From a virus, in the IMG/VR virus record IMGVR_UViG_3300007511_000004, positions 1 through 64,000 of that record: DNA of 64,000 nt, one strand, 5' to 3'. The notes below the pieces were generated by a model, which saw only the letters and a program-made list of their open reading frames with translations, made no database searches and was not told the DNA's origin. A program made the translations under genes and the position numbers. This document shows positions 43,737-62,328 of this stretch, one piece after another (the first letter of the stretch is position 1; every line of letters starts with the position of its first letter).

Positions 43737-45172
43737 TGGCAAGATTAAATTTTCCTAATAACCCCTCAAATAATCAAGAATATACCGCCAACGGAAATAA
43801 GTATAAATTCCGTCTGAAGCCCGGTACCTCCCACGGGTCTTGGCGGGCGACAGCCTTCCAGGATGCGCCTAGAGGTATAGCAGCTGCCGTTGAATTCGGG
43901 ACAGTAACAACCGGGTCCGCAGGATCCGATGCTTCGGTTTCTAATTCCGGTACCTCAAGTGATGCAGTTTTCAATTTTACTATTCCGCGGGGAGACACTG
44001 GTCAAACTGGTGCTAAGGGTCAGAAAGGCGCTGTTGGCGCAACCGGAGCAAAGGGTCAGAAAGGCGCTGTTGGCGCAACTGGTAGTACTGGTTCTAAGGG
44101 TCAAAAGGGCGAGCTGGGATTAACTGGTGCTAAGGGTAATACTGGCTCGACTGGTAGTACTGGCTCGACGGGTAGTACCGGGGCAAAGGGTAATACTGGC
44201 TCGACTGGTAGTACTGGTGCTAAGGGTAATACTGGCTCGACTGGTAGTACTGGCTCTACCGGCTCGAAGGGGCAAAAGGGTGCCACCGGCGATATCCCCT
44301 CGTCGCCGACATTTACCGATGGATATGTCAATGGCTGGTGGAGAAATAATACCTCAGGCAAAGGTCTATATAACCAAGCAACGGGTCAACACTGGTATTC
44401 CGATAACGATGATTATTGGAATATTGCCGGTGGTACCGCTGCAAACGGTATTAGATTTAGAGACGACCACGACGGTACTATTCGGGGTTATATGTATGTT
44501 GACCAATCAAGTAACGTTGGTTTCCTAAACTCTGGCGGTCAATGGTCAATCCGTTGTCATATTCCCGATGGCGAATCACCTAACATTTACTTTGAAGAAA
44601 ATGCAAACACAACTTGGTCTGGCGACCCTGGCAATAACGAAGGTAAAATTGAATATCACTCTGACAGATTCTACATTGCAGCAGGGGCAAATTCGAACCG
44701 GGTTTGTCAATTTAGAAGGTCAGGTTCTGACGTAGCTTATGTTGACAACTCAGGGATTTACACCGGAACCGCAACATCAGCTCGATGGGCGGACGTTGCA
44801 GAGAGATATGCAGCAGATGGGGTATATCCACCGGGCACGGTACTTGCTATTGGTGGCGATAAAGAAGTAACCGAATATAAAGCTGGTATGCCCTTAGCTG
44901 GATGTGTCTCCACTAATCCTGGTGTACGGATGAACAACCACTTCGAGGTAGAAGACGAGAATTCTCCTGAAGCAGTTCTTCATCCATACGTTGCGCTTGC
45001 GGGGCGTATCCCAGTATCCATCAACGGGTCGGCTAAGAAGGGTGATTATATTGTAGCTGATGACAATGGTAAAGGCAAGGCCGTTTCGACCTTGCCCTCT
45101 GACATCAATTTCACGTTGATCGTCGGGATTGCATTAGAAGATGGTACAGATCTAGTTGAAGTGAAGGTCTAG
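43736..45172 (+). CDS. Collagen-containing tail fibre with C-terminal autocleaved chaperone-like domain
   Basis: 34 Gly-X-Y triplets; C-terminus [27 protein letters not shown]. Confidence 0.8.
43991..44296 (+). repeat. Collagen-like (Gly-X-Y)34 repeat, Pro-free, Y position mostly Thr/Lys
   Basis: [18 protein letters not shown] ... [12 protein letters not shown]. Confidence 0.92.
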
Positions 45173-45745
45173 TAAGTCTCCACAAGTACCCTCTGTAACC
45201 GGGATATCCCATTTATCGATCATCGCCTTATAAGCTTTATCCCAGATAGGTTGTAGATCAGCGTTCCCGGCATCACCTTGTCGGACACTATCCTCTGCCA
45301 TAGTGTGTTCGGGATTATGTCGTACGAAATAGACCTCGTCAAACTCTTTAGCCTGTTCTACTGCCATCTTTTCGTATTCAGGTTCGAGTTGACGATCACA
45401 AAGTCCTAACTCATGCGCCACTTTATTGAATACTACATAATCTAGGGGTAATCGCTTAGTGATGAATACGTCGCAACTATATTCATGTTCGAGCATTTGA
45501 CTCCAATGTCGATGGAATAACCAGCTGACCGAATAATAATTGCCCCCGATTTCCTTACCAAGAATTTCATGATCCATAAACATAGTAGATCTAACAGTTT
45601 CGGGCATATAGGTTACATTAGCACCTCTTACTCCAAACTTCTCTCGTTCAAGTAGTTTAATACAAATAGTATTTTTTCCCACCCCGTGCGCGCCTACGAC
45701 CGCGATTCTTTTATCGGATTTCCCCAAGGTCTTCTCCCTCATCAT
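45152..45745 (-). CDS. P-loop NTPase/kinase (AAA_28/NadR-like)
   Basis: [35 protein letters not shown]. Confidence 0.7.
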
Positions 45746-46292
45746 TAATAGTATATTGTGATAGATTTAGGGTCTGCATCGTTTTAGTATCGAATTCAAG
45801 CCCAAAATACGTTAAGTTTGTTATAGCAGGTTTTCTTATTGGATCCATGTCAGCGAAATGATCATGCACTAGGTTAACATCATTATGTAAAAAATAAATC
45901 TTAGCTTTATCTAACTGTCTTTCAAGTGTATAATATAATCCTATGCCTGATTTTAAAGGGTCTAATCTAGATCCCGGTGGAAGAGATGGTATAGGGTGTT
46001 TAGATAGATCCTGATCGTATATCTTAAGGATAGGAGAATCCTCGAACTCGATAGCATAATAATCACAGAACGCGTGGGGTTGAACATTGAATCTATTTCT
46101 AATATCTTCATCAGGATGCTGGTCATAGGTAATATTAATACTGGTATCACTAACACCGATAAGCTCAATACCCTCGTCTGTGATCCATGGACACTTAGCT
46201 CGAATCCCCATAGATTCTATGAGACCACGAGCTTTATCAGGCCTAAAGAATTCCTGCCTAGTACCTTCGGTTGTGACTTTCTCTTCAATCAC
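45711..46292 (-). CDS. Hypothetical protein
   Basis: 193-aa ORF overlapping both neighbours in the operon. Confidence 0.55.
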   Translation of the reverse strand: MIEEKVTTEGTRQEFFRPDKARGLIESMGIRAKCPWITDEGIELIGVSDTSINITYDQHPDEDIRNRFNVQPHAFCDYYAIEFEDSPILKIYDQDLSKHPIPSLPPGSRLDPLKSGIGLYYTLERQLDKAKIYFLHNDVNLVHDHFADMDPIRKPAITNLTYFGLEFDTKTMQTLNLSQYTINDEGEDLGEIR

Positions 46293-46677
46293 CTAATTCT
46301 TCCAAATAGTATTCGTAAACATCCGGTACCATCCCATCATCTCTATGTGATATATCAATTTCCTTGATAATCGCGTCGTATGTTTCCGGATCCTCATGAT
46401 AGGGTTTAAAATAGGGATCATCGGGGAGAAGATTCGGATATGATAATACGTCATAAAAGGTCTCGTTGAAATCTTCAGCAATCCAATTGGCATAACATAT
46501 TGCCACGAAATAAGACTTGGCCGGGTAGATCCACTTATCAACTCTTTCATAAAAGTGTTTAATTGCATCTGGTATGATAGTATCGGGCGCCCAGGTTATC
46601 TCGACTCGATTTAGGTCGTCTTTGGTGATATCCTTTAATCTCCGATATACCTCTTGTCTAACTTGCCATTCTTTCAC
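46285..46677 (-). CDS. Hypothetical protein
   Basis: 130 aa, YPAKSYFVAICYA..DPYFKPY; overlaps its neighbours. Confidence 0.55.
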   Translation of the reverse strand: MKEWQVRQEVYRRLKDITKDDLNRVEITWAPDTIIPDAIKHFYERVDKWIYPAKSYFVAICYANWIAEDFNETFYDVLSYPNLLPDDPYFKPYHEDPETYDAIIKEIDISHRDDGMVPDVYEYYLEELGD

Positions 46678-47923
46678 AGATCTTCCCTTCGATTATCGCA
46701 TAATATAATTCAGCGTCAACACTATATATTGAATCTACTAATCCAACTCCCTGTGCCACACAGTACCAATTGAAGGGGTTCCAGGGGAAAGCCATCGATC
46801 GGTTAGCAACACTCTCTACATTAAAATCCGTATCAAACCTGTCATCATTATAGTAGTGTAGTAGTATAAAATCTTTTATTTCATTAATTGAATTGAGTAG
46901 GGTGGCGTCTAACTCCCTATAATCGTAACCACTCTTAATAGATTCTCCGAACAATTTTGCGGCATAGACTATGAATTCGATATTAGTTGCTTCAAGAGGT
47001 TCTACAAAGTGTGCAGCTAACCCATTCGATAATACATTCTTATATGCAATTTTAGATAGGGCACCAGCTTCAAACCTCAGAATCCTACCACCTTCAATCC
47101 CCATTTCTGCTCGGGCTTCTTCGTCACTTATCCACTTGGAAGAATAAACATATCCCCTATTATTCCGATCCTGTAGGGGGATTGACCACTCCCAGCCATG
47201 TTCTCTTTTAATAGATTCGGTATAGTAGCATGGATCTGGTTCTTTAGAATACACTAGAGCCGAATCCAGATGTAGATCGTCAAAGGGAAGGTACTTGATA
47301 TCGAATGGATGAGATAATAGTCTTTTCTGGCCAGTACAATCCACATAGTAGTCTGCTACGTGTCCCTTTATCGATACTACACCATTATCATCAATTATTA
47401 CATCATTATCGTCAATCGTATCATAATGATGATTGATCTTACCTTTTAGGAAATCCCTAAGATAAGGTGCAACCAGATCATTTTGCCAATGGAGAGCTAT
47501 ATCCCACCAAAAGGGATCGTTACTTTCCAGGTCCGGTGGGATGTCGTCTAAAGCAAGTTGGGTATAGGGGCTTAGATTCTTAACCGGTTTCCCAGCCTTA
47601 AAGATATCCGTTAGAACATCCTGATCCGGAAAAAGCCTATCGATGAATGATTCACCGAAGGGATGGAAATACTCTTCTTCAGCCCAGTTAACGAAATTAA
47701 CCCCGTACTTCACGGTTGAATTGGTTTTTGAAATGAAATCTTTTAAATCAATATCCGCTGCTCTTAGAACATCTACTACGGTCTCAGTAACACTTTCGCC
47801 TACGCCAATCGGGGGAATAGTATTACTCTCGATAAGGGTAATATCAAAATCCTTATGGAGGATGAGAGCCGAGAACCAACCAGCGGTTCCACCGCCACAT
47901 ATTAATATCTTTTTTCGGTCCAT
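46658..47923 (-). CDS. Flavin-dependent tryptophan halogenase-like protein
   Basis: GGGTAGW, IGVGES, KYGVNFVNW, DCTG, GWEWSIPL, GYVYS, FVEPLEAT. Confidence 0.88.
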   Translation of the reverse strand: MDRKKILICGGGTAGWFSALILHKDFDITLIESNTIPPIGVGESVTETVVDVLRAADIDLKDFISKTNSTVKYGVNFVNWAEEEYFHPFGESFIDRLFPDQDVLTDIFKAGKPVKNLSPYTQLALDDIPPDLESNDPFWWDIALHWQNDLVAPYLRDFLKGKINHHYDTIDDNDVIIDDNGVVSIKGHVADYYVDCTGQKRLLSHPFDIKYLPFDDLHLDSALVYSKEPDPCYYTESIKREHGWEWSIPLQDRNNRGYVYSSKWISDEEARAEMGIEGGRILRFEAGALSKIAYKNVLSNGLAAHFVEPLEATNIEFIVYAAKLFGESIKSGYDYRELDATLLNSINEIKDFILLHYYNDDRFDTDFNVESVANRSMAFPWNPFNWYCVAQGVGLVDSIYSVDAELYYAIIEGKICERMAS

Positions 47924-48798
47924 TCTAATAATTCTCTATGCCCATTACATCCATCTGTTAAATCGTGTACGTACCTATAGTGCTCAGTAAGACACCTGCC
48001 GAAATAATCGCAATTGCGACAAATATCTGAAACGTTCTTGATTGGCTCGATCAGCGCCCATTTACGATATTCATCAAAACTGTCTAATTCTAAGAAATAT
48101 TCGCGATCCGACACATCAAATTCCAACACGCCGAATTTTCCGCTTGGGGTAATATATACGTGATTGTTACTGAAAGCGTTATAGTTTCCCGATATAGATT
48201 CCTCTATGCGATAGAGGTTTTCAAATTCGAATGGCAGATCTAACTCTAACCACTTTTTAACAAATTCTTCATAATCACTATGCTTAACATTGTGACAGTT
48301 AGCTTGGTTCGTTGAATATGGTTTGATCTCTACAGATCGAAGATTCGAGAGTAAAGATAATTCCTGTACCATGGAAGGTACATCCATATCAAGTACATTA
48401 CGACTTGCAAGTATAAGGACTGAGATTGGTACCGGTGATACTAGCATATTTGCAAATACTATATCACTCCGCTCTCTTGCAGCAAAGTCATATGAGACCG
48501 AAAGCGATATATCATTATCGTGCATGTATGTTTTAGGAGATGCGTAATTGGTAACAATATTAATTACACCATCATAATGCTTACGAATGATCTTCTTCAT
48601 ATCATAGAAGTAATCGTCACCTAATGTTGAGATCTCCCCGCCATATAAATCGATGTGGTGAATATCCGGGATCTCGCTCAACCTCTCATCTAATACCCTC
48701 AGATCAACCTTCTTCTTATCTGCTAATTGTTCACTAGTAAGATAACAAAAATCACATCGAAAATTGCAAAGATATGTGGGGTTGATCGATACGATCAT
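47902..48798 (-). CDS. Radical SAM enzyme with Cys-rich C-terminus
   Basis: CNFRCDFC, YGGE, CRNCDYFGRC..GC. Confidence 0.9.
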   Translation of the reverse strand: MIVSINPTYLCNFRCDFCYLTSEQLADKKKVDLRVLDERLSEIPDIHHIDLYGGEISTLGDDYFYDMKKIIRKHYDGVINIVTNYASPKTYMHDNDISLSVSYDFAARERSDIVFANMLVSPVPISVLILASRNVLDMDVPSMVQELSLLSNLRSVEIKPYSTNQANCHNVKHSDYEEFVKKWLELDLPFEFENLYRIEESISGNYNAFSNNHVYITPSGKFGVLEFDVSDREYFLELDSFDEYRKWALIEPIKNVSDICRNCDYFGRCLTEHYRYVHDLTDGCNGHRELLEWTEKRY

Positions 48799-49514
48799 AA
48801 CAATTGGGTCTCTTTATAGTATCCTGATTTCAATTTATTCTGACCCCATAGCTGGCTGTAGCCAAGAGTTGCAATGACTGTATATCGAGTTTTATCCGAA
48901 GTGAGCTCGGTCACCTTATGTACGAATGACGGATCATTATTATTTAAGATAATGATTTTATTACGATGTGGGGTATATCTTTGGGTTATCTCTACCTTAT
49001 CAGTGAGGATATCGTCTAACGAGGTCTCCGGTCTCCAATGAGGCATAGGATCACCAGGCTTCCATAGTATATCCGGTCTACCAACTAATAACTCTCCACC
49101 ATCTTCTTCGGTGAAGTCGTCCATATTAGGATAACAGAGTATTTGAAGTAATGTTCCATCATATCCATCAAAGTGCCAGGGTAACCCTCCGCCCTGACTC
49201 ACTTTATTAATATTGACGTGTATTTCGTCGAAATCTCCGTAGACGTGTCTCCAGTAATCGAAATAAGGTAACTGAACTATATCTTGGAAAAATTCTAAAT
49301 ACTGTTGCCGACCTTTAATGTAAACATCTTGATCTCTTTGGTGATATTCCCGATCCCAGACCGGATTCTGTACGATTGACCCATAACTACTTTCGGTACC
49401 AAAAGTCTCTGACATTAGCATGCTGAATAACATAGCGCTAAAAGAAGGATCCACGTCTACAATATCAGCGCCCTTCTTATATAAATCGTTGAAGTTAGGT
49501 ATCTCTTGTATCAT
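48795..49514 (-). CDS. 2OG-Fe(II) oxygenase
   Basis: WHFDG, GGEL, FVHKV, RYT. Confidence 0.8.
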   Translation of the reverse strand: MIQEIPNFNDLYKKGADIVDVDPSFSAMLFSMLMSETFGTESSYGSIVQNPVWDREYHQRDQDVYIKGRQQYLEFFQDIVQLPYFDYWRHVYGDFDEIHVNINKVSQGGGLPWHFDGYDGTLLQILCYPNMDDFTEEDGGELLVGRPDILWKPGDPMPHWRPETSLDDILTDKVEITQRYTPHRNKIIILNNNDPSFVHKVTELTSDKTRYTVIATLGYSQLWGQNKLKSGYYKETQLL

Positions 49515-50043
49515 AATTAAACGTCACTACAATTCGGGCTTCGGGAGATTTGGGCTGAGAAGAACTATGGAATTTTAATCCATTGAACCACATTGTTCTA
49601 TTTGCTACAGAATCACATACACTTTCTATAGTATATTCTTTATGTTGTTCCGGTCCATTCTCTTTATATATGTAGGTTGGAGCAGTACTATCCGTTACGT
49701 AATAGAGCTGGGTTGTGTGAGGTTGCATATAGTCTACATGGGGATCATGCACCATACCACCCTCATTACTATTAAATATATATCCGATTCGTATCCGGAT
49801 CAGACGACCGAAATCTAGGTTAATCAGTGGGGATAATAATCCAAACAATCTTTTATCATTGATATTCCCATTCCGATAAACCACAGTAGAGAATCCATTT
49901 TGGTTATCACTGCCCCCTTTCTTTACCACATTCTTATTAAACGTCCATTGGGTTTCGGGAGATAGGATTTCTTCATGAATTAGTTTGTGTGAAAAGGGAG
50001 TTAGGAAATTGTCAATTATTTGCATGAATAATCCTTTCTTCAA
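49495..50043 (-). CDS. 2OG-Fe(II) oxygenase
   Basis: PHVD, LYYVTDS, NR..WFNG..FHSS, RIVVTFN. Confidence 0.8.
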   Translation of the reverse strand: MKKGLFMQIIDNFLTPFSHKLIHEEILSPETQWTFNKNVVKKGGSDNQNGFSTVVYRNGNINDKRLFGLLSPLINLDFGRLIRIRIGYIFNSNEGGMVHDPHVDYMQPHTTQLYYVTDSTAPTYIYKENGPEQHKEYTIESVCDSVANRTMWFNGLKFHSSSQPKSPEARIVVTFNYDTRDT

Positions 50044-51004
50044 GCTCTTTCATTAGACTGCAATGCTTTTCCACCATATCATGCTGCTTCATATCCTTTA
50101 TGGTTTTCTTGCATCCATTACAGATCTGGAATAATGCACAGGCGTAACACCCGCTATGCATAGTCTGGATATCAAGCTCTTTCTGCAGCGGGGTGAAGAA
50201 TTCACCGGCCATCTCCTTTTCGAAGTCAATGGAGTATTCTCGATCATCCCCAAATGATCCGCAACTATAATAATCGCCACTTGGCTGCATCGCTCTAATT
50301 GTATAATCACAGTCTCTATTCTGTGGACAAACCATAGCCTCATTTCGGAGTCTCTTAACCATCTGCTTCGTATTAAATTCCCATTCCATTAGACCCGATT
50401 CATAGATCTCCAGATACTTGCTATACATCTTAGATAATTGATACGGTCGGGATTGAACGCCCGAAGCCATTGCGTAGTTTAGCTTACATTCAACTCCCAT
50501 CTCCTTTGCAAGTTTGACATTATCAAGTGCGGTATCTTCATTCTCTTCGTCGATAACTGATATGAAATCGGGTCTGTATCCGACCCATTCGAGCATCTTG
50601 TCTGATACCGCCCAGAAGTCTTCTTCCGTGAAAACGCTATAATCACCCTTCAGTCTCGAGCTGCCATAATGAAATGACGTGGTTATACCCATACGCGGAT
50701 GAGTAAAAATATCGATCCACTTCTCTGGCTTCTGGTAGAAAGGCCAGAGATTAGTTGTAAAGGAAACAGTTGCTCGATGATCGTGATCGTCAAGGTGTGC
50801 TAATAGTTTCTTATAATACGAAGGATCCATCATTAAAGGATCCCCGCCATTTACAATAATAGTGTTGGTATCCGGAAACCGCTCCAGGAATCTATAGATT
50901 CGGTTAAGTTCTATTTGATCCTTGACGTCGTCTGCAATTGACGTACTTGAGCAGAAAGTGCATTTGAAGTTGCAACGTTCCGTGGGCTTAATAATTAGTT
51001 CCAT
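50012..51004 (-). CDS. Radical SAM/SPASM enzyme
   Basis: IIKPTERCNFKCTFC, GGDPL, CP..RDC..YSC..CYACALFQICNGC. Confidence 0.92.
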   Translation of the reverse strand: MELIIKPTERCNFKCTFCSSTSIADDVKDQIELNRIYRFLERFPDTNTIIVNGGDPLMMDPSYYKKLLAHLDDHDHRATVSFTTNLWPFYQKPEKWIDIFTHPRMGITTSFHYGSSRLKGDYSVFTEEDFWAVSDKMLEWVGYRPDFISVIDEENEDTALDNVKLAKEMGVECKLNYAMASGVQSRPYQLSKMYSKYLEIYESGLMEWEFNTKQMVKRLRNEAMVCPQNRDCDYTIRAMQPSGDYYSCGSFGDDREYSIDFEKEMAGEFFTPLQKELDIQTMHSGCYACALFQICNGCKKTIKDMKQHDMVEKHCSLMKELEERIIHANN

Positions 51005-51630
51005 AATGAAATACCTGCATTGATGGTATACCGATTAACGTTATTATTGGTTAACCTCTTTACTGAATGTACCAAGCGGGGGTTTCCATTATTCAATAGA
51101 ATTACTTTCCCGTTAGCTGGATACACAGTGTGCTTAGTTTCGACCTCCCCGTCAGGCCAGGTTCTTTCGCCGAGTTTAAGATACGATTCCCACTCATTAT
51201 CCCATCTACTTTCCTCAGTGAAATAGATTAGGAATCCGATATCGTGATCTTCTACCCCATCCCAATGCCATCCAAGCTCCGCTGATCCGTTCCACACATC
51301 TATGAATTTTAATTTATGATTATAGCCGCAAGTTCTTTTAAACCACCCGGTGTAATGCGGATCACCGAATAATTCATTTATCACCTCTATATAAATTGGA
51401 GGAACAGACTCGACGCTTTTTTGATTGACTTGCCCCTCACGATCTCTGTGATATTTTTTAGCCTTCTCGGGTGCACCATCTGCTGCATTTATACTCCAGT
51501 CTGGCACACCTTTATATTCAATGTGATCTACCCAATTCTCAGATAAAAGCTGACCCCAGACCATAGCATTAAGATGGGTAGGCAGCTCCCATTCATCATA
51601 CCCATCCTTGTAGAATTTATCGACGTTCAT
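50995..51630 (-). CDS. 2OG-Fe(II) oxygenase (paralog of 48795-49514)
   Basis: WHWDG, LNNGNPRLVHSV, RYT. Confidence 0.8.
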   Translation of the reverse strand: MNVDKFYKDGYDEWELPTHLNAMVWGQLLSENWVDHIEYKGVPDWSINAADGAPEKAKKYHRDREGQVNQKSVESVPPIYIEVINELFGDPHYTGWFKRTCGYNHKLKFIDVWNGSAELGWHWDGVEDHDIGFLIYFTEESRWDNEWESYLKLGERTWPDGEVETKHTVYPANGKVILLNNGNPRLVHSVKRLTNNNVNRYTINAGISLWN

Positions 51631-52100
51631 ATTGCCGTTGTTCCTAGCCGAGTTTTTCCCTCACCTGTAATATATAGCTGAAGGTCTGATACCTTGGCTA
51701 TTCTAATGATACCGTAGAAGGGCGAGGCTGTGTGATAGACGTAAGCGGGGAAGGTTACTGTCATACCAGTAGTCGGTTTAATAATATATGGTTCGAAGTG
51801 TGAGGCCAACTGCGAGGGGTAGCCACGATTAGCATTACCTCGCGGGTCGTGAAGTATTAGTTCCCCGCCCTCCCCTGAGACGTGTTCATAGTAGATGGAT
51901 GTGAAGTGAGCGTGACCGTGATTATGAGTCGCTAGCCAATAGCCAGACTGTGGGCTTGTTTCCCAGTTACGGATAGCGTGATCAAGTTGATCAAGATCCT
52001 CCTGAAAATAGATTTGTAAATATTCTTTGAATCGTGTCCCAGGATCAGGGTTACCGTTCTCTTCAACGTGTATCGGGGTGGACCACATCATAAACCTCAC
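51627..52100 (-). CDS. Putative 2OG-Fe(II) oxygenase (TIGR02466-like)
   Basis: HNH, GGELILHDPR, FPAYVYH. Confidence 0.75.
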   Translation of the reverse strand: MRFMMWSTPIHVEENGNPDPGTRFKEYLQIYFQEDLDQLDHAIRNWETSPQSGYWLATHNHGHAHFTSIYYEHVSGEGGELILHDPRGNANRGYPSQLASHFEPYIIKPTTGMTVTFPAYVYHTASPFYGIIRIAKVSDLQLYITGEGKTRLGTTAI

Positions 52101-53052
52101 TTAAAAAACATGTATCTTGAGTTCTGAAACTTTGGATGTGGTTTGATAAAAAACATCCCATATTACAATACTGGAAGTGTGCACATTCAAGACAGTTGTA
52201 TTGTTTGAACCATTTCTCTTCCATCTCAAATTTGGATGGTTGATAATTCCGTTTTAGATCTTTTACTAGAATTGTACATGGGCCTGATGTTCCATCGGGT
52301 AAAATGGTAACAGTATCCATGCAGGTCATTTGCTTCTTTACCTTGTTTTGCATATCGTTAAAGGGTAGAACCTTTGGATACTTATCCAGCATGTATAGTA
52401 TAAAATCCCGAAGCATAATATCATTAGGTAGGAAGGTATCCATATTAGCTTCGGGCGTATAATAGTCAAAGTAGATACCAAATCGATCATAAAGGTAATC
52501 GAAAAACGGTACATCGTCTCTCATGAATTTCCGGATACTCGGCTTCGTCATAATGACATTCACCGATTTAATATAATCCCTATACCTTCTTACATTCTCC
52601 TGGAATATCGGAAAGGTGGTCTTATTGAATCGGGCAGAAGGGTCGTAACTAGTTAATAAAGTAACCGGATCCGATCCTAACATTATATCGAATCTTTCGG
52701 TGTTTGTAAATACGAAGTTAGTAGTAAAACAAATTTCTAGATTAATACCTTCGCTGAATGCCCAATTATTTAATTCACGTATGACCTTACCGTAATCCTG
52801 AAATACCCTATCAGGTAAAGCGTCAGCGAAGACCTCTCCGCCCATAAAATGTACACTATAGTCCTCTCGGGGTAAACTCTTAATCCGACCCTTGATTATA
52901 TCGATCTTTTCTAGAATGGTATCGATACCGAAAAAACTATTATGGTCCTGACTGCAGAATTTACAATTCAGATCGCAATATTCGAAGAGAGTGACGATGA
53001 TCTCTCCAGTCTTACCCCTTTTACCCGTCCGGCTTATTACATCAATTGACAT
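52063..53052 (-). CDS. Radical SAM/SPASM enzyme
   Basis: CDLNCKFC, MGGE, FTTN, CLECAHFQYCNMGC. Confidence 0.9.
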   Translation of the reverse strand: MSIDVISRTGKRGKTGEIIVTLFEYCDLNCKFCSQDHNSFFGIDTILEKIDIIKGRIKSLPREDYSVHFMGGEVFADALPDRVFQDYGKVIRELNNWAFSEGINLEICFTTNFVFTNTERFDIMLGSDPVTLLTSYDPSARFNKTTFPIFQENVRRYRDYIKSVNVIMTKPSIRKFMRDDVPFFDYLYDRFGIYFDYYTPEANMDTFLPNDIMLRDFILYMLDKYPKVLPFNDMQNKVKKQMTCMDTVTILPDGTSGPCTILVKDLKRNYQPSKFEMEEKWFKQYNCLECAHFQYCNMGCFLSNHIQSFRTQDTCFLSEVYDVVHPDTR

Positions 53053-53578
53053 TCTTGAATACCATATTACAAACCAAACTGATCCGGGTATCTTCTCCTA
53101 GGTATGGAGTTACTTCGTGCCAGATGTAATAAGGAGCTGCGATCAATAATCCGGTTTTTGGCTCTATCTCAACATAAGGTTCTCGACAGAATGATTTCCG
53201 ATTAGTGAACCTCGGGTCGTACAGTCTCAGCTTACCGCCTTCCTCTGATTCGTTTGAATAGTAAACGGCAAAGGCATCTATCTGATCATGGGTATGACAG
53301 GATTTGAAGTCCCCACGATCCATCGGATTGATGATATTAAAAGAATCCATATCATAGTCGGGTGGATGGTCATAGTGGAAACATAGTGCATCGAAAGCTG
53401 ATTTAAAGCGCTCGCGGATAGTTCTCATATTATCAGAGACCCACAAATCCACATTATAGTCAGCGGGTTTCGTTGGAAGAGTGGCGATAATAGCCTTGGA
53501 GGTATTTAAGATATCCTTATTAAACTCGTCGCTATCATCATATTGTTTAGTGTATATAAAGGATTCAAATTCTATCAT
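53042..53578 (-). CDS. Putative 2OG-Fe(II) oxygenase (TIGR02466-like)
   Basis: HTH, GGKLRLYDPR, WHEVTP, RISLVCN. Confidence 0.8.
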   Translation of the reverse strand: MIEFESFIYTKQYDDSDEFNKDILNTSKAIIATLPTKPADYNVDLWVSDNMRTIRERFKSAFDALCFHYDHPPDYDMDSFNIINPMDRGDFKSCHTHDQIDAFAVYYSNESEEGGKLRLYDPRFTNRKSFCREPYVEIEPKTGLLIAAPYYIWHEVTPYLGEDTRISLVCNMVFKNVN

Positions 53579-54705
53579 AACCTAAAATTATTCAATTCTC
53601 CACTATTAGCATTTTTCAATTTATAGATGTAGTTTAGGAATAATACATTTACCTTCAATCGATCTTCACATTCGAATGCCGAAGTGGAAAGGGGCTTCAG
53701 TTCTTCCGCCATGATCGAACCAATTCCCGCAGTGTCGATATACCCCAGTGACAGAGAATCGTATACAGCATCCATTATAGTATCAGATAGATTTTCCTCG
53801 AATGGGGTTTGGCTATTCTGGGTAACTGCTTGCATCATTTCAGATCGGATTGTCGAGAATCGGATATTAGGATGACGGTTTACATAATCGACTCTGTGGT
53901 ACTTTCCTTCATCATCGAATAACCAGCGGGTTCTATCATTAGTATCCTTAAGCGCTATTAGATCATCTTCAGCATTCACATCACTGATCCCGAGAACCCC
54001 TTGGACCCAGCTTTTATAGATGTTATAGAATAGGTGAGATTTGAGGAACTGAACCTCCTCGTTACATTTCTTACCCAATAGTTTTAACATCTTCTTTCCG
54101 AGGCTACCATTATGATCAGACCCGCTTGCGAGGTAATTTGCAATTAAGAACTCCACCCCGATATTAGGAATAATCTCCGATCGTAATACCGAATAATCTG
54201 CCCATGATAGATCTAACGTTATGGCATTCCACTTAGTGATAAATTCAGACTTACTTAGATAAGTAATCCCCTTAGCATTATTCTTTTGTTTTTCCAGCCC
54301 ATCGTTTGCGCCCCATAGAAAAGTAGTGGTATTTTCTAACTGGGAATTGAGACTGAATGTATTATAAATCTTCCATGCTATATCAACATGTAAAGTTTCA
54401 AATAGTAGCTTTATGAATTTAATAATTATCTTATCATAATTATCACGATTGACGTGGATATTCACTGTACCTTTATTCTTAAGCGCAGTAAAGAAATCTT
54501 TATCATTATCATATGGGGCGTCATCCCCGGTCCACAGTTCCTCTAGGTCGTCTACATTGTGCATCTGGGCCTTCAGATCCCTCCAGGCAGTCTTCAAATC
54601 TTCGAGGAAGATGGAGTTTAAATTAGGGGTAATAACCATGTTATCGACATTATTGTCCATTAAGTAATCGTACTTAACGTAAACTTTATCAAAGAGCAGA
54701 AACAT
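53575..54705 (-). CDS. Hypothetical protein
   Basis: 376-aa ORF coupled within the operon. Confidence 0.6.
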   Translation of the reverse strand: MFLLFDKVYVKYDYLMDNNVDNMVITPNLNSIFLEDLKTAWRDLKAQMHNVDDLEELWTGDDAPYDNDKDFFTALKNKGTVNIHVNRDNYDKIIIKFIKLLFETLHVDIAWKIYNTFSLNSQLENTTTFLWGANDGLEKQKNNAKGITYLSKSEFITKWNAITLDLSWADYSVLRSEIIPNIGVEFLIANYLASGSDHNGSLGKKMLKLLGKKCNEEVQFLKSHLFYNIYKSWVQGVLGISDVNAEDDLIALKDTNDRTRWLFDDEGKYHRVDYVNRHPNIRFSTIRSEMMQAVTQNSQTPFEENLSDTIMDAVYDSLSLGYIDTAGIGSIMAEELKPLSTSAFECEDRLKVNVLFLNYIYKLKNANSGELNNFRL

Positions 54706-55432
54706 ACTCTAATTCCTTTTGCATTTGGTGTTGAAAGTCTTCATGGATAATTTCCCCTGATGAGACCCCATATGTTAACATAGCCATGAAATTATTAGGA
54801 GTAGTCCAATAGTAAAACATATTTTTACCTTTGAACATCGGTTCGTTGAATTGTTTTTCCATATAGTATACTGGGATATCTAATGCGAGGATGGCCTGAG
54901 CCTCCTCCCATTCATACATTTTTACATAATTTACCCCAATGTAATCATAGTCGTCAATTGTCTCAAACTCGTTCTTTGCTGCTTCCCGTATCGCTTCATC
55001 ATTAATGGTAGTTACATTAAAAACTGACCCGGAAGCAATAGCGGTTAGCCACCTATTAATTATTTCAGGATTCTCTGATCGGAATTCCGCCATCTCATCA
55101 TCATTTAGAATATATTCAATATCGTAAATCTCGTCGATCCATTCGAACCCGGCTTCTTGATAGAGCATTTTAAGTACGGTCAATTCGGAATGAACCGAGT
55201 TAATGATCAACCTATGGTTCATATAGACCAGAATATAGTTTTTACGATCAGCTAATGATACCTTATCCCAGCCAACTATATTACAGGGGATATCCAGATT
55301 GCTGACGTAGGTAATCAACTTATCTTCTTTTAATATGCTTTCGCTATAATCAATATTAAAGATGATACTATCATCATTAAAATACTCCTTCAATTCCTCC
55401 ATGGGAATAGGAGCCACAGTATCTTTTATCAT
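54689..55432 (-). CDS. Hypothetical protein
   Basis: 247-aa acidic ORF immediately downstream of the candidate precursor. Confidence 0.6.
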   Translation of the reverse strand: MIKDTVAPIPMEELKEYFNDDSIIFNIDYSESILKEDKLITYVSNLDIPCNIVGWDKVSLADRKNYILVYMNHRLIINSVHSELTVLKMLYQEAGFEWIDEIYDIEYILNDDEMAEFRSENPEIINRWLTAIASGSVFNVTTINDEAIREAAKNEFETIDDYDYIGVNYVKMYEWEEAQAILALDIPVYYMEKQFNEPMFKGKNMFYYWTTPNNFMAMLTYGVSSGEIIHEDFQHQMQKELEYVSAL

Positions 55433-55435
55433 AAT

Positions 55436-56011
55436 TTATCTACGTCCTCTTGAAGTGTGACAGTCGTAATGACAACTATAATGACAGGTATCAATGTCTC
55501 GGGTGAGGGCGGAATCCCTTACATTCCGATATGCGGTTCGTACTGATGACAGATACGATTCCATTTCACTGGAGGATATGGTCCTACCAGAATTCACTGT
55601 ACTGGAATACCCTGGCGCGGATACGGATGATCGAGCATTGTATGTTCCGGATGTGGGCTGATACGCTTTAGCAGTACTATCAATCTGCAACTCACTAGTA
55701 CCATTGTTATCGAAATATCTTCGAGCCCGCATATTCCTCATATGGGTCCAGTCAGTTGCGCCGGTGACCATCCCAGTCCGGACTGTCGAAGCAGTAATAG
55801 TTCCCCCGGAAGAACCTAGATCATTATCTGACATATATCCAGTGCTGCTAGGTAAAGATGCAGTAGAACCCCCGAACCGATCGTTAGGCATTTCGGAAAA
55901 AGGTTTACTGTTAGTCCCCCATGATACTGAGGCTTTCGCGTCGGCCGCAACATAATCCTGCCATCTCTTACGAACGTTACTTCGACTGATATTATTTGTT
56001 AAGGATACCAT
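55436..56011 (-). CDS. Ser/Thr-rich protein with C-terminal (CHxx)3-RGRR tail; candidate radical SAM substrate/precursor
   Basis: Ends DTCHYSCHYDCHTSRGRR*; these are the only Cys in the protein; embedded among maturase-type enzymes. Confidence 0.65.
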   Translation of the reverse strand: MVSLTNNISRSNVRKRWQDYVAADAKASVSWGTNSKPFSEMPNDRFGGSTASLPSSTGYMSDNDLGSSGGTITASTVRTGMVTGATDWTHMRNMRARRYFDNNGTSELQIDSTAKAYQPTSGTYNARSSVSAPGYSSTVNSGRTISSSEMESYLSSVRTAYRNVRDSALTRDIDTCHYSCHYDCHTSRGRR

Positions 56012-56012
56012 A

Positions 56013-57035
56013 TTAAATCCTGTCGATCTGTTTATTTGTATTTATGTCTTTTAACAACATCATTAGAGTTTTCGGGGAGGGACATGTATCACCTTCCCAT
56101 TCTAATTGATGGCAATCTGATCCACACACGTCGAATACCGGGCATTCGAAACAAGCGGGGTTTCGATTCAATTCCTTCATTATAATACTACATCTGCCGT
56201 TTGATTTTAAAACTTCAGACGCAGGCTGATTTATATGCCCATATGCGTTTTGGGGAGCGGTATTAGGGCATCCAGCAATTGAACCATCAGCATTAATAGT
56301 AATTAACTTTTGTTCACAGTCTCGACACCAGGTACCTTGGCTCGGATTGTTTTTCTCGAACTTGGCGTAAATATTCTCCATGATTACATGATATATGGAA
56401 TCCCGGTCATTCAATTGATTGTGGTATCTAACAAACCAATTATCGATCTCTTTATTCGAAGGCCATAATCCGGAATTAAGCTTGGCGTTGCCATCCATAG
56501 TAATCCGCTCAAAGTCTAATTCATGGATACCGAGACTTGACATGTAGGCAATGATCTGCTTCGGTGGCATATCTAGAACAGATTTACTCATACTAACGAA
56601 GCATTTAACAGTATATCCCATACCCACTAATAATTTGACATTATCCTCCCATAATCTTCGCTGTTTTACATTGGCGAATCTGATAGTAGGATCCCAAGAA
56701 GTACCGATGCGCTTATTGAGAACATCCTCAAAGAATTTGAGCTTCTCTTCGGTGAGTTTATACGTAAGGTTTGATGTGATACCATAATTATCCCCATCGG
56801 TCAATTCAACGAATCTTCGCAACGAGGACACGGGCGCGAGCATTGGCTCACCACCATGAAACTCATACCAAATAGAATCTGCAGTTAATTGATTAACCCA
56901 GGCTGCAGTTGCCTCGGGATCGAAGTAGATCTTCTGACCAGAAATCCCAGAAGTGAAACAATGAGAACAATTGAGATTACAGGTCTCAGTTGTTTTCACA
57001 TAAACGGATAAGCGTTTCGGTGTCGTTAATTGCAT
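56013..57035 (-). CDS. Radical SAM/SPASM enzyme
   Basis: YVKTTETCNLNCSHC, FHGGEP, CRDC..GCP..CFECPVFDVCGSDC..CP. Confidence 0.92.
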   Translation of the reverse strand: MQLTTPKRLSVYVKTTETCNLNCSHCFTSGISGQKIYFDPEATAAWVNQLTADSIWYEFHGGEPMLAPVSSLRRFVELTDGDNYGITSNLTYKLTEEKLKFFEDVLNKRIGTSWDPTIRFANVKQRRLWEDNVKLLVGMGYTVKCFVSMSKSVLDMPPKQIIAYMSSLGIHELDFERITMDGNAKLNSGLWPSNKEIDNWFVRYHNQLNDRDSIYHVIMENIYAKFEKNNPSQGTWCRDCEQKLITINADGSIAGCPNTAPQNAYGHINQPASEVLKSNGRCSIIMKELNRNPACFECPVFDVCGSDCHQLEWEGDTCPSPKTLMMLLKDINTNKQIDRI

Positions 57036-57456
57036 ATGAAACCATTAATGCCTTTTTATCGTTGATTGCCCGATGCCGGACGTTTGCCGGGATTAGTAGG
57101 GTCTCTCCAGGATGAATCGTATACACCTTACCCTCGACCTCCATCACTTTCTCTCCATCATGACATTCTATGTGAACATCATGTGGATCTGTATGCTCTT
57201 TGAATGTAGTACCATGTGCCGGATTGTAGAAGAAATGCATAGTTCTATCGTTTAGTTGATACAATCTTTCCATCTGCTCAACCTTAATAGTGCATTGACC
57301 CTCTGCTATAATAACCCCCAGTCGGGCTAAATATCCACAAAAGTCCAGATCACTATTAAGATAATGTTGAAGGCCGTCTCTATCTATATACGACACATCA
57401 TGATTTAGGTAGCACTCGGGAGAGTCTACGAAATTAAAAAAGTCTTTGAAAAACAT
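56986..57456 (-). CDS. Cupin/JmjC-like protein
   Basis: FKEHTDPHDV..C.DGEK, PGETLLIPANVRHRA. Confidence 0.75.
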   Translation of the reverse strand: MFFKDFFNFVDSPECYLNHDVSYIDRDGLQHYLNSDLDFCGYLARLGVIIAEGQCTIKVEQMERLYQLNDRTMHFFYNPAHGTTFKEHTDPHDVHIECHDGEKVMEVEGKVYTIHPGETLLIPANVRHRAINDKKALMVSYAINDTETLIRLCENN

Positions 57457-57457
57457 T

Positions 57458-57465
57458 CATAAATA
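57458..57465 (+). promoter_or_regulatory. T4-type late promoter for the GT25-PLOD gene
   Basis: CATAAATA in the divergent intergenic region. Confidence 0.55.
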
Positions 57466-57486
57466 TTCCTGTATGTGCTACGTATA

Positions 57487-57515
57487 ATTATATCAGGTTT
57501 ATCTACATTTGTAAA
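57487..57515 (-). promoter_or_regulatory. Sigma70-type promoter driving the minus-strand radical SAM operon
   Basis: On the minus strand: GGGGG-TTTACA-17 bp-TATAAT, about 30 nt upstream of the cupin ATG. Confidence 0.75.
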
Positions 57516-57520
57516 CCCCC

Positions 57521-61962: not shown

Positions 61963-62328
61963 ATGAGTGACTCTGATAGACAAGTTGAAGATGATTTTGA
62001 ATATTCTCGTAAGGTATATCTGGATTTAATTGCTACCGGGCAAGAAGCCCTGGGATCAATGTTAGATGTGGCGGATGAGAGCCAACACCCTAGATCTTAT
62101 GAAGTACTGTCCGGTATGATTAAGAATATTAGTGATGTAAACGACCGGCTTATGGATATCCATAAAAAGAAGAAAGATATCGCAAAGCCCGCTGATCAAG
62201 CTGCCTTACCCCCCACCACCAATAATCTATTCGTAGGATCAACTGCAGAATTACAGAAGATGCTTATTTCGAATAAAAAGGAGGAAGATAACGTGATTGA
62301 TGTGAGTGAATATAGTGATGACAAATGA
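61963..62328 (+). CDS. gp16: Terminase small subunit
   Basis: DFEYSR, HPRSYEV, NNLFVGSTAELQKML. Confidence 0.92.
   Translation: MSDSDRQVEDDFEYSRKVYLDLIATGQEALGSMLDVADESQHPRSYEVLSGMIKNISDVNDRLMDIHKKKKDIAKPADQAALPPTTNNLFVGSTAELQKMLISNKKEEDNVIDVSEYSDDK

What the first reader, a model, noticed from the sequence alone, without database searches (positions are those of the whole stretch)
45152..57515. Phage-encoded RiPP-like maturation operon around a protein ending in (CHxx)3-RGRR
Seen: 16 tightly coupled minus-strand genes behind one near-consensus sigma70 promoter, inserted between the tail fibre and neck genes. They encode four radical SAM enzymes with SPASM-type Cys tails, five 2OG-Fe(II) oxygenases, a cupin, a flavin halogenase-like protein, a P-loop protein and four unknowns. 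The remaining gene is a 191-aa Ser/Thr-rich protein whose only cysteines lie in the tail CHYSCHYDCHTSRGRR. Known: rSAM/SPASM enzymes cross-link Cys and aromatic/His residues in ribosomal peptides (sactipeptides, ranthipeptides, triceptides, His-Xaa-Ser systems), and 2OG oxygenases and halogenases are common RiPP tailoring enzymes. Inference: this is a dedicated pathway that hyper-modifies the tail of a virion-like protein, or a peptide released from it, for example a cross-linked or metal-binding receptor-binding tip. I do not know of a characterised phage pathway of this kind.
Basis: partly seen in the sequence, partly recalled or inferred. Interest (0 to 1): 0.93.

Follow-up and report, generated by a model that had tools for sequence, protein, structure and literature searches.

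The report
Radical-SAM cassette maturing phage virion protein
A marine T4-like phage carries a widespread but unstudied set of radical-SAM and iron-oxygenase enzymes. They sit around one folded protein whose last 16 residues, (Cys-His-x-Ser)x3-Arg-Gly-Arg-Arg, hardly vary in any relative. Because a relative of that protein is found in purified phage particles, the enzymes probably modify a virion component chemically, which I found described in no paper.

Summary
Seventeen overlapping minus-strand genes (45152-57456) encode four radical-SAM enzymes (three with full SPASM motifs), a JmjC-like cupin, four Pfam-supported 2OG oxygenases plus one candidate, a flavin halogenase, a weak P-loop protein, four unknowns and a 191-aa protein ending CHYSCHYDCHTSRGRR.

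All 98 related loci carry the tail C-H-x-S-C-H-x-x-C-H-x-S-R-G-R-R at the C-terminus. The adjacent radical-SAM gene is present wherever the contig allows. The conserved core is cupin, rSAM1, tail protein, two unknowns, rSAM2-4, a 130-aa unknown and one 2OG oxygenase. The halogenase, P-loop and extra oxygenases are add-ons of this marine lineage and track tyrosine in the tail (8/8 versus 2/44 loci).

The cassette also occurs in cultured jumbo phages (RSL2, RSF1, FLC6, Atu_ph07) and in Bdellovibrionota MAGs. Published proteomics places the Atu_ph07 homologue gp170 in virions, peaking in the top gel slice, without the enzymes.

The best reading is enzymatic maturation of a virion protein's tail. 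The chemistry is unknown. The closest characterised analogue is the bacterial HXS system, and membership was tested and not met.

This scan has already reported the same cassette on other DNA (65 findings, at least 47 genomes). A check of that claim elsewhere found that "part of it fell".

The parts
57487..57515 (-). Sigma-70-like promoter TTTACA-17 nt-(TG)TATAAT upstream of the first gene
   Evidence: 11 of 12 matches with an extended -10. Consensus match only. An equal match lies at 52710-52682.
56986..57456 (-). Cupin / JmjC-like Fe(II) oxygenase (core gene)
   Evidence: Pfam Cupin_2 E 2e-9; JmjC_2 and Asp_Arg_Hydrox weak. H88-x-D90...H128 is invariant in 19 homologues. Present in 70 of 86 loci.
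56013..57035 (-). rSAM1: radical SAM/SPASM enzyme without an RRE domain (core gene). Its stop lies one nucleotide before the substrate gene.
   Evidence: CX3CX2C at residue 19 plus the full SPASM Cys pattern. TIGR04085 SPASM 28.2 bits against a cutoff of 27. The profile's best full-length PDB relative is anSME 4K36, E 2.6e-6. Found in 83 of 86 loci; the three without it are cut by contig ends.
56039..56046 (-). CATAAATA, a T4-type late-promoter-like motif 34 nt before the tail-protein ATG, inside the 3' end of rSAM1
   Evidence: ATAAATA lies within 80 nt upstream of this gene in 27 of 62 non-redundant loci, against 7 of 236 for neighbours -1, +1, +2 and +3.
55436..56011 (-). Cys-His-tailed protein (191 aa): a folded alpha/beta domain (about residues 10-175) plus a 16-residue tail. 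It is the proposed substrate and virion component.
   Evidence: AF2 pLDDT 85.8 and pTM 0.79, with the tail at about 50. No PDB fold match. The homologue Atu_ph07 gp170 is in virions.
55439..55486 (-). Codons for the tail CHYS-CHYD-CHTS-RGRR (residues 176-191)
   Evidence: C176, H177, C180, C184, H185, R188, G189, R190 and R191 are invariant. It is the only such pattern in the genome.
54689..55432 (-). Unknown 247-aa protein (core gene, phrog_20767), a candidate maturation helper
   Evidence: Found in 80 of 86 loci directly after the tail protein. AF2 pLDDT 90.4, with no known fold: best Z 4.6 over 54 residues. The Atu_ph07 homologue gp169 is not listed among virion proteins.
53575..54705 (-). 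Unknown 376-aa protein (core by position, N-terminus MF(H/L)LFxKVY)
   Evidence: A 360-405 aa gene holds this position in all 23 loci aligned with the window's protein. RSL2 ORF069 shares the N-terminal motif. No Pfam, NCBIfam or PDB hit.
53042..53578 (-). 2OG-Fe(II) oxygenase (accessory; 25 of 86 loci)
   Evidence: PF13759 E 1.6e-8.
52063..53052 (-). rSAM2: radical SAM/SPASM enzyme (core)
   Evidence: Found in 72 of 86 loci.
51627..52100 (-). 2OG-Fe(II) oxygenase (core; 54 of 86 loci)
   Evidence: PF13759 E 2.5e-10.
50995..51630 (-). 2OG-Fe(II) oxygenase (accessory; 19 of 86 loci)
   Evidence: PF13661 E 7.7e-5, below the cutoff.
50012..51004 (-). rSAM3: radical SAM/SPASM enzyme (core, the most conserved gene)
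   Evidence: It is 56% identical to the RSL2 enzyme and 49-63% to those of the MAG loci.
49495..50043 (-). Unknown 182-aa protein, a possible fifth oxygenase (accessory; 9 of 86 loci)
   Evidence: No Pfam hit. Hits phrog_274, labelled 'endonuclease V'. An HxD...H-like pattern is visible. Weak BLASTP match to 53042-53578.
48795..49514 (-). 2OG-Fe(II) oxygenase (accessory; 11 of 86 loci)
   Evidence: PF13640 E 3.9e-6.
47902..48798 (-). rSAM4: radical SAM enzyme with a shortened C-terminal Cys set (core)
   Evidence: Found in 55 of 86 loci.
46658..47923 (-). Flavin-dependent halogenase (accessory; 10 of 86 loci)
   Evidence: PF04820 at 212.7 bits. GGGTAG and WEWSIP motifs are present. It co-occurs with tyrosine in the tail in 8 of 8 loci, against 2 of 44 without tyrosine.
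46285..46677 (-). Unknown 130-aa protein (core, phrog_20737), usually right after rSAM4
   Evidence: Found in 47 of 86 loci, including RSL2 ORF081.
45711..46292 (-). Unknown 193-aa protein (accessory; 12 of 86 loci)
45152..45745 (-). P-loop protein (accessory; 3 of 86 loci)
   Evidence: AAA_28 E 5e-4, below the cutoff. A Walker-A-like motif is present.

Best explanation
The cluster is a phage-encoded post-translational maturation system for one virion protein.

Proposed steps:
1. The 191-aa protein folds into a compact alpha/beta domain and leaves a flexible 16-residue tail, (Cys-His-x-Ser)x3-Arg-Gly-Arg-Arg-COOH.
2. The four radical-SAM enzymes have no RRE domain. Three are SPASM type with an anSME-like build. 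They bind this tail directly, possibly helped by the three conserved unknown proteins.
3. They use 5'-deoxyadenosyl radicals to abstract hydrogen from Cys, His or Ser side chains. The product would be cross-links (thioether or His-Ser type) or oxidised residues.
4. The JmjC-like cupin and the 2OG oxygenases add hydroxylations.
5. In this marine lineage, a flavin halogenase and extra oxygenases further decorate the tyrosines that only this lineage has in the tail.
6. The finished protein is built into the particle. The enzymes are not.

Shown: the gene content, the invariance of the tail, its strict linkage to the enzymes, the fold prediction, and virion presence of a homologue.

Inferred: that the tail is the substrate, every chemical step, the timing of expression, and the role in the virion.
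For: 1. Tail invariance. The tail is the most conserved part of a family whose body drifts to 23-30% identity. C176, H177, C180, C184, H185 and R188-R191 are invariant. All 98 loci have it at the very C-terminus. The family has 783 clusters at 50% identity.

2. Linkage. rSAM1 lies directly upstream in 83 of 86 loci, and the three exceptions are cut by contig ends. The order cupin, rSAM1, tail protein, u247, a ~370-aa gene, then rSAM2-4 is kept across T4-like, phiKZ-like (RSL2) and Rak2-like (Atu_ph07) phages and Bdellovibrionota MAGs.

3. Single candidate substrate. Only one such motif exists in the 146-kb genome.

4. Fold. AF2 gives a confident folded domain with a low-confidence tail, as expected for an accessible substrate segment.

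5. Enzyme build. rSAM1-3 have full SPASM motifs and no RRE. The nearest solved full-length relative is anSME, which acts on whole proteins.

6. Cupin. It has an invariant HxD...H triad.

7. Virion proteomics. Atu_ph07 gp170 (31.89 kDa, tail FCHSSCHASCHNSRSRR) was found in purified virions with 8 unique peptides and 35% coverage. It peaked in gel slice 1, where 87-127 kDa proteins run. gp165-169, 171 and 172 are not listed (PMC6102473 Table S5).

8. Late-promoter motif. A late-promoter-like ATAAATA sits just upstream of the tail-protein gene in 27 of 62 loci, against 7 of 236 for its neighbours. It is present in the window as CATAAATA.

9. Tyrosine and halogenase. Tyrosine in the tail tracks the halogenase, 8 of 8 against 2 of 44.

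10. Precedent. HxsB and HxsC radical-SAM enzymes mature the protein HxsA at a His-x-Ser repeat (+8 Da) (PMC13128918).
Against: - No mass-spectrometric or biochemical evidence of any modification exists for any member. The Atu_ph07 study did not look for one.
- Its loading buffer lists no reducing agent. The top-of-gel signal may therefore be disulfide-linked or SDS-stable oligomers rather than enzyme-made cross-links.
- Three Cys plus three His could simply be a metal site.
- All similarities to characterised maturases are far below family cutoffs, so no chemistry can be assigned.
- Oxygen-sensitive radical-SAM enzymes and oxygen-dependent oxygenases and halogenase share one operon.
- The tyrosine-halogenase link is confounded by shared ancestry (about three sublineages). 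Two halogenase loci have no tyrosine.
- The promoter motifs are consensus matches only.
- The scan index says that a check of 'the same claim on other DNA' found that part of it fell. I could not learn which part.
Confidence: 0.65

Rival explanations
1. The tail is an unmodified metal-binding or disulfide-forming module (Cys3His3) of a virion protein. The neighbouring enzymes act on something else, such as other fibre or collagen-like proteins, cell-surface glycans or a small molecule.
For: CHxxCHxxCH is a plausible Zn/Fe/Cu ligand set. From my own knowledge, T4 fibre tips use His-x-His metal sites. Collagen-like fibre genes and a PLOD-like enzyme lie next to the cluster. The high-molecular-weight gp170 species was seen under apparently non-reducing conditions.
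Against: This reading does not explain why the tail protein and rSAM1 are adjacent in every testable locus, across unrelated phage types and in bacteria. It also does not explain why Ser, Gly and the C-terminal RGRR are as invariant as Cys and His. The collagen and PLOD genes are absent from nearly all other loci (2 of 86 each).
Confidence: 0.15
2. It is a classical RiPP or cofactor pathway. The tail is modified and then cut off and released as a small bioactive peptide, metallophore or redox cofactor, as for PQQ or mycofactocin.
For: The target is C-terminal and the system has several radical-SAM/SPASM enzymes plus tailoring oxygenases and a halogenase. From my own knowledge, PQQ and mycofactocin also derive from precursor peptides made by SPASM enzymes.
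Against: There is no protease, exporter or RRE in the core. The body of the protein is a conserved, confidently folded domain. The homologue is a virion protein. The gene carries a late-promoter-like motif typical of structural genes.
Confidence: 0.07
3. It is a conflict device related in principle to HXS. The matured His-x-Ser protein would block DNA entry of competing phages (superinfection exclusion), or act as a decoy against host HXS-like defence.
For: The tail contains three His-x-Ser units followed by basic residues. In HXS such repeats, matured by radical-SAM enzymes, block phage DNA entry.
Against: Pfam finds no domain in the protein, so no peptidoglycan-binding domain was detected; a signal peptide was not tested. 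There is no family membership. HXS is 99.7% Pseudomonadota with the order HxsD-B-C-A. The homologue is packaged in virions.
Confidence: 0.05

Closest known systems
HXS antiphage system (HxsA matured by the radical-SAM enzymes HxsB and HxsC with HxsD; Li et al., Nat Commun 2026, PMC13128918)
   Same: Several radical-SAM enzymes plus a small helper mature a roughly 200-residue protein, not a short peptide. They act at tandem His-x-Ser repeats rich in basic residues, and a covalent +8 Da change maps to an S-H-R-S-S motif. The phage tail holds three His-x-Ser units followed by RGRR.
   Different: No gene reaches the Hxs family cutoffs: rSAM1 scores 35 bits against 370 for HxsB, and rSAM3 scores 31.6 against 268 for HxsC. 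There is no HxsA or HxsD hit. A Cys precedes every His. The repeats are at the extreme C-terminus. Pfam detects no peptidoglycan-binding domain, and N-terminal processing is unknown. The phage system has four radical-SAM enzymes plus a cupin and 2OG oxygenases. It is phage-encoded and the product is in the virion. HXS is a bacterial defence (99.7% Pseudomonadota).
Anaerobic sulfatase-maturating enzyme (anSME, TIGR03942, PDB 4K36-4K39) acting on sulfatases
   Same: It is a minimal radical SAM + SPASM build of about 340-370 residues without an RRE, and it acts on a short motif of a whole protein. It is the best full-length solved relative of rSAM1 and its top NCBIfam hit. The last repeat, C-H-[GST]-S-R, has Cys and Arg spaced as in the sulfatase motif C-x-[PA]-x-R. 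That motif is from my own knowledge.
   Different: The score is 43 bits against a cutoff of 349. The Pro/Ala position is Gly, Ser or Thr. There are three repeats and four enzymes. No sulfatase is present.
QhpD/QhpC, PapB/PapA and NxxcB thioether systems, and the CXXX-repeat target family (TIGR04114/TIGR04115)
   Same: Radical SAM/SPASM enzymes cross-link regularly spaced cysteines. QhpC is a protein subunit that is also modified by a flavoprotein (my own knowledge). The phage tail is literally (CXXX)x3.
   Different: All scores are far below the cutoffs: PapB 39 against 340, QhpD 18 against 453, and the CXXX-repeat maturase 21.5 against 350. The acceptor residues differ. Those systems make peptides or enzyme subunits, not virion parts.
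Covalent maturation of phage particles, for example HK97 capsid isopeptide 'chainmail' (my own knowledge)
   Same: A virion protein is chemically altered after translation. The Atu_ph07 homologue's run at the top of the gel would fit cross-linking.
   Different: HK97 cross-linking is autocatalytic and needs no dedicated enzymes. Here about ten dedicated genes are involved, and cross-linking is not shown.
Cyanophage flavin halogenase VirX1 (named in an earlier scan note; paper not read here)
   Same: It is a flavin halogenase of the Trp_halogenase family encoded by a marine T4-like phage. Homologues of the window's enzyme at 27-31% identity are annotated in many cyanophages and in pelagiphage HTVC008M.
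   Different: Its native substrate is unknown. Here the genomic context offers one, the tyrosine-bearing tail, by co-occurrence only.

Membership tests
HXS system (HxsA/B/C/D) | Substrate matches HxsA (TIGR03979) | tested here: not met
   NCBIfam scan of the 191-aa protein gave no family at E <= 0.1.
HXS system (HxsA/B/C/D) | Radical-SAM enzymes reach the HxsB (TIGR03978, 370 bits) and HxsC (TIGR03977, 267.9 bits) cutoffs | tested here: not met
   rSAM1 scores 35.2 bits against HxsB. rSAM3 scores 31.6 bits and rSAM4 16.1 bits against HxsC.
HXS system (HxsA/B/C/D) | HxsD partner (TIGR03976) | tested here: not met
   No NCBIfam hit for the 247-, 376-, 130-, 182- or 193-aa unknowns.
HXS system (HxsA/B/C/D) | Tandem His-Xaa-Ser repeats in the matured protein | tested here: met
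   There are three H-x-S units in the consensus tail CHASCHSSCHGSRGRR. The window has HYS, HYD and HTS.
Anaerobic sulfatase-maturating enzyme | Score above the TIGR03942 cutoff (349 bits) | tested here: not met
   rSAM1 scores 43.2 bits and rSAM3 36.2 bits.
Anaerobic sulfatase-maturating enzyme | Radical SAM core plus SPASM domain, no RRE | tested here: met
   Cys motifs. TIGR04085 at 28.2 bits against a cutoff of 27 for rSAM1. CX3CX2C starts at residues 11-26. No PqqD hit.
Anaerobic sulfatase-maturating enzyme | Substrate motif C/S-x-P/A-x-R | tested here: inconclusive
   The last repeat is C-H-[GSTNVF]-[SN]-R. Cys and Arg are spaced correctly, but Pro/Ala is replaced. The motif definition is from my own knowledge.
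Radical-SAM RiPPs (sacti-, ranthi-, triceptides) | Short precursor with leader and core, and an RRE/PqqD recognition domain | tested here: not met
   The substrate is a 191-aa protein with a confident fold. No RRE/PqqD hit appears in any cluster protein.
Radical-SAM RiPPs (sacti-, ranthi-, triceptides) | Leader peptidase and/or exporter in the cluster | tested here: not met
   None is present among the 17 genes or in the conserved core.
Radical-SAM RiPPs (sacti-, ranthi-, triceptides) | Maturase adjacent to its substrate gene | tested here: met
   The gap is one nucleotide here. The genes are adjacent in 83 of 86 loci.
Flavin-dependent halogenase (PF04820) | Pfam score above the cutoff, with GxGxxG and WxWxIP motifs | tested here: met
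   212.7 bits against a cutoff of 21. GGGTAG at residue 10 and WEWSIP at residue 244.
JmjC/cupin Fe(II)-2OG oxygenase | HxD/E...H facial triad | tested here: met
   H88, D90 and H128 are invariant in 19 homologues. Cupin_2 at 37.5 bits against a cutoff of 27.2. JmjC_2 at 22.0 bits, exactly at its cutoff of 22.
Phage virion structural protein | Detected in purified particles | not testable with these tools
   This is shown only for the homologue Atu_ph07 gp170 (PMC6102473 Table S5; identity by exact mass of 31.89 kDa). No data exist for this uncultured phage.

The most novel reading that the evidence does not exclude
Phages of several unrelated lineages, and predatory Bdellovibrio-like bacteria, use a dedicated multi-radical-SAM and oxygenase pathway to build a new kind of cross-linked, possibly metal-binding or covalently anchoring, Cys/His/Ser structure at the C-terminus of a particle protein. 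This would be enzyme-made chemical maturation of a virion, with new radical-SAM chemistry on a (Cys-His-x-Ser)3 motif. In this lineage it would also include the first natural protein substrate of a phage halogenase.
Probability: 0.3. Interest if true: 0.92.

Novelty: new variant of a known kind. Interest (0 to 1): 0.8.

Why it matters
Virion proteins are usually thought to mature by folding, proteolysis or self-catalysed cross-links. A dedicated enzyme pathway of about ten genes for one particle protein would be a new layer of phage assembly biology. It is conserved from marine T4-like phages to soil jumbo phages and predatory bacteria.

It would also define new radical-SAM chemistry on a fixed 16-residue tag. 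That is of interest for protein engineering.

It may give the long-unexplained radical-SAM, 2OG-oxygenase and halogenase genes in the 'host recognition cluster' of marine myoviruses a concrete substrate.

It is directly testable, because cultured phages carry the cassette: Atu_ph07, RSL2, RSF1, FLC6, FLC8 and SURPRISE13.

Tried and rejected
- DNA and protein searches of the cultured-phage collection with the cluster and with the window's tail protein found nothing. Relatives appeared only through rSAM1 and u247 and then by reading the genes in between.
- Fold searches found no known fold for the tail protein: Foldseek PDB gave no E <= 0.001 and VIA-wide gave a best Z of 4.5.
- Fold searches for u247 also found no known fold. 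The best Z was 4.6, over the first 57 residues only. Weak Z of about 3 matches to radical-SAM barrels are too weak to use.
- ESM Atlas look-ups of u247 and u376 were uninformative because the Atlas models are poor.
- Profile searches of u247 and u376 against PDB sequences gave nothing.
- PADLOC gave only generic viperin-like N-terminal radical-SAM matches.
- Complex prediction, intended for the tail protein with u247, was not available.
- The RSL2/RSF1 virion proteomics paper (Virology 2016) is not held.
- The strict T4 late promoter TATAAATA is not upstream of cluster genes in this window. Only the relaxed NATAAATA form is present.
- I considered nucleotide or DNA hypermodification and small-molecule roles for the enzymes. 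I ranked them low because of the strict linkage to the tail protein.

Full report
**What is there**

The window is the first 64 kb of a 146.5-kb viral genome with direct terminal repeats. It is a T4-like marine myovirus. gp14 (60258-61148), gp15 (61197-61958) and a VrlC-like DUF4815 giant protein (17602-22938) are recognisable. The nearest cultured relative by gp15 is phage C48C1 (56%), then cyanomyoviruses (44%).

The finding lies in what the pelagimyophage literature calls the 'host recognition cluster', between VrlC and gp14. [quoted passage not shown]

Seventeen minus-strand genes run from 57456 to 45152. Junctions range from a 50-nt overlap to a 3-nt gap.
- Four radical-SAM enzymes. Three have complete SPASM cysteine patterns and the fourth has a shortened one.
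- A cupin.
- Four 2OG oxygenases with Pfam support.
- A flavin halogenase (213 bits; GxGxxG and WxWxIP present).
- A weak P-loop protein.
- The 191-aa protein whose only cysteines are in CHYSCHYDCHTSRGRR.

The 'fifth' oxygenase (49495-50043) rests on a motif and a weak pairwise match only. The promoter at 57515-57487 is an 11/12 consensus match, but an equal one lies inside the cluster.

**Is the tail meaningful?**

Yes. A word-indexed search found 27 metagenomic homologues. An exhaustive profile search found 783 clusters at 50% identity.

In alignments the body drifts to 23-30% identity. C176, H177, C180, C184, H185 and R188-G-R-R191 stay invariant, and the motif always ends the protein.

I fetched 98 loci from IMG/VR, metagenomes, MAGs and cultured phages. 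Every one encodes a protein ending C-H-x-[SNA]-C-H-x-x-C-H-x-[SN]-R-[GS]-R-R. There are 31 variants, and the only other deviation is Phe for the middle His in two loci. The phage genome has no second copy of the pattern.

**Linkage**

I ran a tblastn matrix of all 17 proteins against 86 loci.
- rSAM1 lies immediately upstream of the tail protein in 83 loci. The three exceptions are truncated contigs.
- u247 lies immediately downstream in 80 loci.
- A 360-405 aa gene, too divergent for BLAST but with a shared N-terminus, follows it in every locus examined.
- Then come rSAM2 (72 loci), rSAM3 (60), rSAM4 (55), a 130-aa unknown (47) and one 2OG oxygenase (54).
- The cupin precedes rSAM1 in 70 loci.

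The halogenase (10), P-loop (3), three further oxygenases (11-25), u182 (9) and u193 (12) are confined to the window's marine lineage. The conserved system is therefore about ten genes, and this window holds an extended version.

**Cultured carriers and virion evidence**

rSAM1 (39-47% identity) and u247 occur together in 15 records of cultured jumbo phages.

In Ralstonia phage RSL2 the order is:
- ORF066, cupin
- ORF067, rSAM1
- ORF068
- ORF069, u376-like
- ORF070, u247-like
- ORF072, ORF075 and ORF077, radical-SAM enzymes
- ORF081, u130

ORF068 (186 aa) ends VCHSSCHTSCHGSRGRR. The genome papers for these phages list the genes only as accessory 'cupin, Fe-S oxidoreductase, radical SAM, 2OG oxygenase' (PMC8066314; PMC11898562).

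In Agrobacterium phage Atu_ph07, gp170 (296 aa) ends FCHSSCHASCHNSRSRR. It sits between the rSAM1 homologue gp171 and the u247 homologue gp169. Its computed mass of 31.89 kDa equals that of 'gp170' in Supplementary Table S5 of Attai et al. 2018.

That table records gp170 in purified virions with 8 unique peptides and 35% coverage. It appears in gel slices 1-9 and is most abundant in slice 1. Slice 1 holds 87-127 kDa proteins, whereas other ~30 kDa proteins peak in slices 7-8. None of gp165-169, 171 or 172 is listed.

So a family member is a particle protein, the enzymes are not packaged, and the protein runs as a high-mass species. The stated loading buffer contains no reductant, so disulfides could explain that last point.

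**Timing**

The T4-type late-promoter core ATAAATA lies within 80 nt upstream of the tail-protein gene, inside the end of rSAM1, in 27 of 62 non-redundant loci. The comparison figure is 7 of 236 for the four flanking gene positions (Fisher 3e-15, not corrected for relatedness). It is often the full TATAAATA.

The window has CATAAATA 34 nt before the ATG. This suggests extra late transcription of the substrate, as for structural genes. It is an inference from motifs only.

**Structures**

AF2 with a 25-sequence alignment gives the tail protein pLDDT 85.8 and pTM 0.79. It predicts a compact alpha/beta domain (helices 10-26, 74-90 and 147-165; strands 91-117 and 169-175), with residues 176-191 at pLDDT of about 50.

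No PDB fold matches it. The BFVD hits are uncharacterised viral relatives, including the Atu_ph07 protein and three 504-660 aa paralogues in one uncultured myovirus.

u247 folds confidently (pLDDT 90.4) into no recognised fold. The cupin keeps an invariant H-x-D...H triad.

A profile of rSAM1 finds anSME (4K36) as the best full-length solved relative (E 2.6e-6). All NCBIfam matches (anSME, PapB, DynA, HxsB, HxsC and others) are 16-44 bits against cutoffs of 268-650. No chemistry can be assigned by homology.

**Lineage-specific point for this window**

Among 52 loci with enough downstream sequence, tyrosine occurs in the tail only where a halogenase is present (8 of 8). Only 2 of 44 tyrosine-free loci have a halogenase.

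The eight loci belong to about three related sublineages, so this is suggestive and not independent evidence. It offers tyrosine in the tail as a candidate substrate for the phage halogenase and the extra oxygenases.

**Beyond phages**

Eight MAG contigs hold the motif, and most of them carry cassette genes. Several are 178-382 kb contigs of Bacteriovoracaceae or Halobacteriovoraceae. Two of these were scanned, and their flanking genes are cellular: 3-hydroxyacyl-CoA dehydrogenase in one and a 2-oxoacid dehydrogenase E1 in the other. The first also has a fibre-type Peptidase_S74 protein next to the cassette.

**Comparison with known systems**

The nearest characterised analogue is the bacterial HXS defence. 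There, radical-SAM enzymes HxsB and HxsC, with HxsD, mature the protein HxsA at a His-x-Ser repeat (+8 Da on SHRSS) (PMC13128918). I took that lead from earlier notes of this scan and read the paper myself.

The phage tail contains three His-x-Ser units followed by basic residues. Every membership test failed, however, and the substrate, gene set, location and carrier differ.

anSME-sulfatase, QhpD-QhpC and the PapB/CXXX-repeat systems share the principle of SPASM enzymes acting on spaced cysteines or on whole proteins. None is a family match.

Literature searches found no description of a phage virion protein matured by radical-SAM enzymes.

**Earlier scan notes**

The scan has already reported this cassette many times: 65 findings in at least 47 genomes, with readings like mine. 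The index adds that a check of the same claim on other DNA found 'part of it fell', without saying which part. The chemical and virion-role steps should therefore be treated as unproven.

**Verdict**

The tail-enzyme linkage is about as strong as comparative genomics can make it. The virion location is supported by one published proteome of a homologue. The chemistry and function are open.

I put 0.65 on enzymatic modification of the tail of a virion protein. It is a new variant of radical-SAM protein maturation, undescribed for phages in the papers I could search, and readily testable in cultured phages.

Noticed in passing
window 57521-59458 (+) and 43736-45172 (+): A 645-aa protein combines GT25, the PLOD glycosyltransferase domain and a 2OG oxygenase domain (a collagen lysyl-hydroxylase/glycosyltransferase build). 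It lies beside the cluster, and a collagen-repeat fibre gene lies on the other side. These may form a second, separate protein-modification pair. Homologues are next to the cassette in only 2 of 86 loci each.
   Followed up: partly
L095 (Halobacteriovoraceae MAG, 382-kb contig) and L089/L093 (Bacteriovoracaceae MAGs): The cassette, with a Cys-His-tailed protein, sits in long MAG contigs. In the two scanned (L095, L089) the flanks are cellular metabolic genes. In L095 it lies next to a Peptidase_S74 fibre-type protein, a clostripain and a transglutaminase-like gene. It may be chromosomal in predatory bacteria, or a prophage.
   Followed up: partly
L094 9186-10027: One Rhodobacteraceae-bin contig encodes two tandem small proteins that both end in the Cys-His tail. 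It also has a homologue (53% identity) of the window's collagen-like fibre protein.
   Followed up: no
window 49495-50043 (-): This 182-aa protein hits phrog_274, labelled 'DNA endonuclease V' (E 1e-30). It has no Pfam hit and carries an HxD...H-like pattern. The PHROG label may not describe it.
   Followed up: partly
L006 13958-15760; L095 17513-19252: Some relatives of the cassette add a roughly 580-600 aa radical-SAM enzyme. The L095 protein has a B12-binding domain (class B methyltransferase-like). The enzyme set therefore varies between lineages.
   Followed up: no
BFVD hits A0A8S5USJ7, A0A8S5USJ8 and A0A8S5USV2 (Myoviridae sp. ctijX18): Three 504-660 aa proteins of one uncultured myovirus contain the tail-protein fold. 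The domain can therefore be part of larger, paralogous proteins.
   Followed up: no
window 57499-57972 (-): This 157-aa ORF overlaps the start of the plus-strand PLOD-like gene and the promoter region. It is probably not a gene.
   Followed up: no
window 62306-64000: Earlier scan notes describe a terminase large subunit split by an intein here. I confirmed only a weak, below-cutoff DNA_Packaging hit for the ORF at 61963-62328.
   Followed up: no
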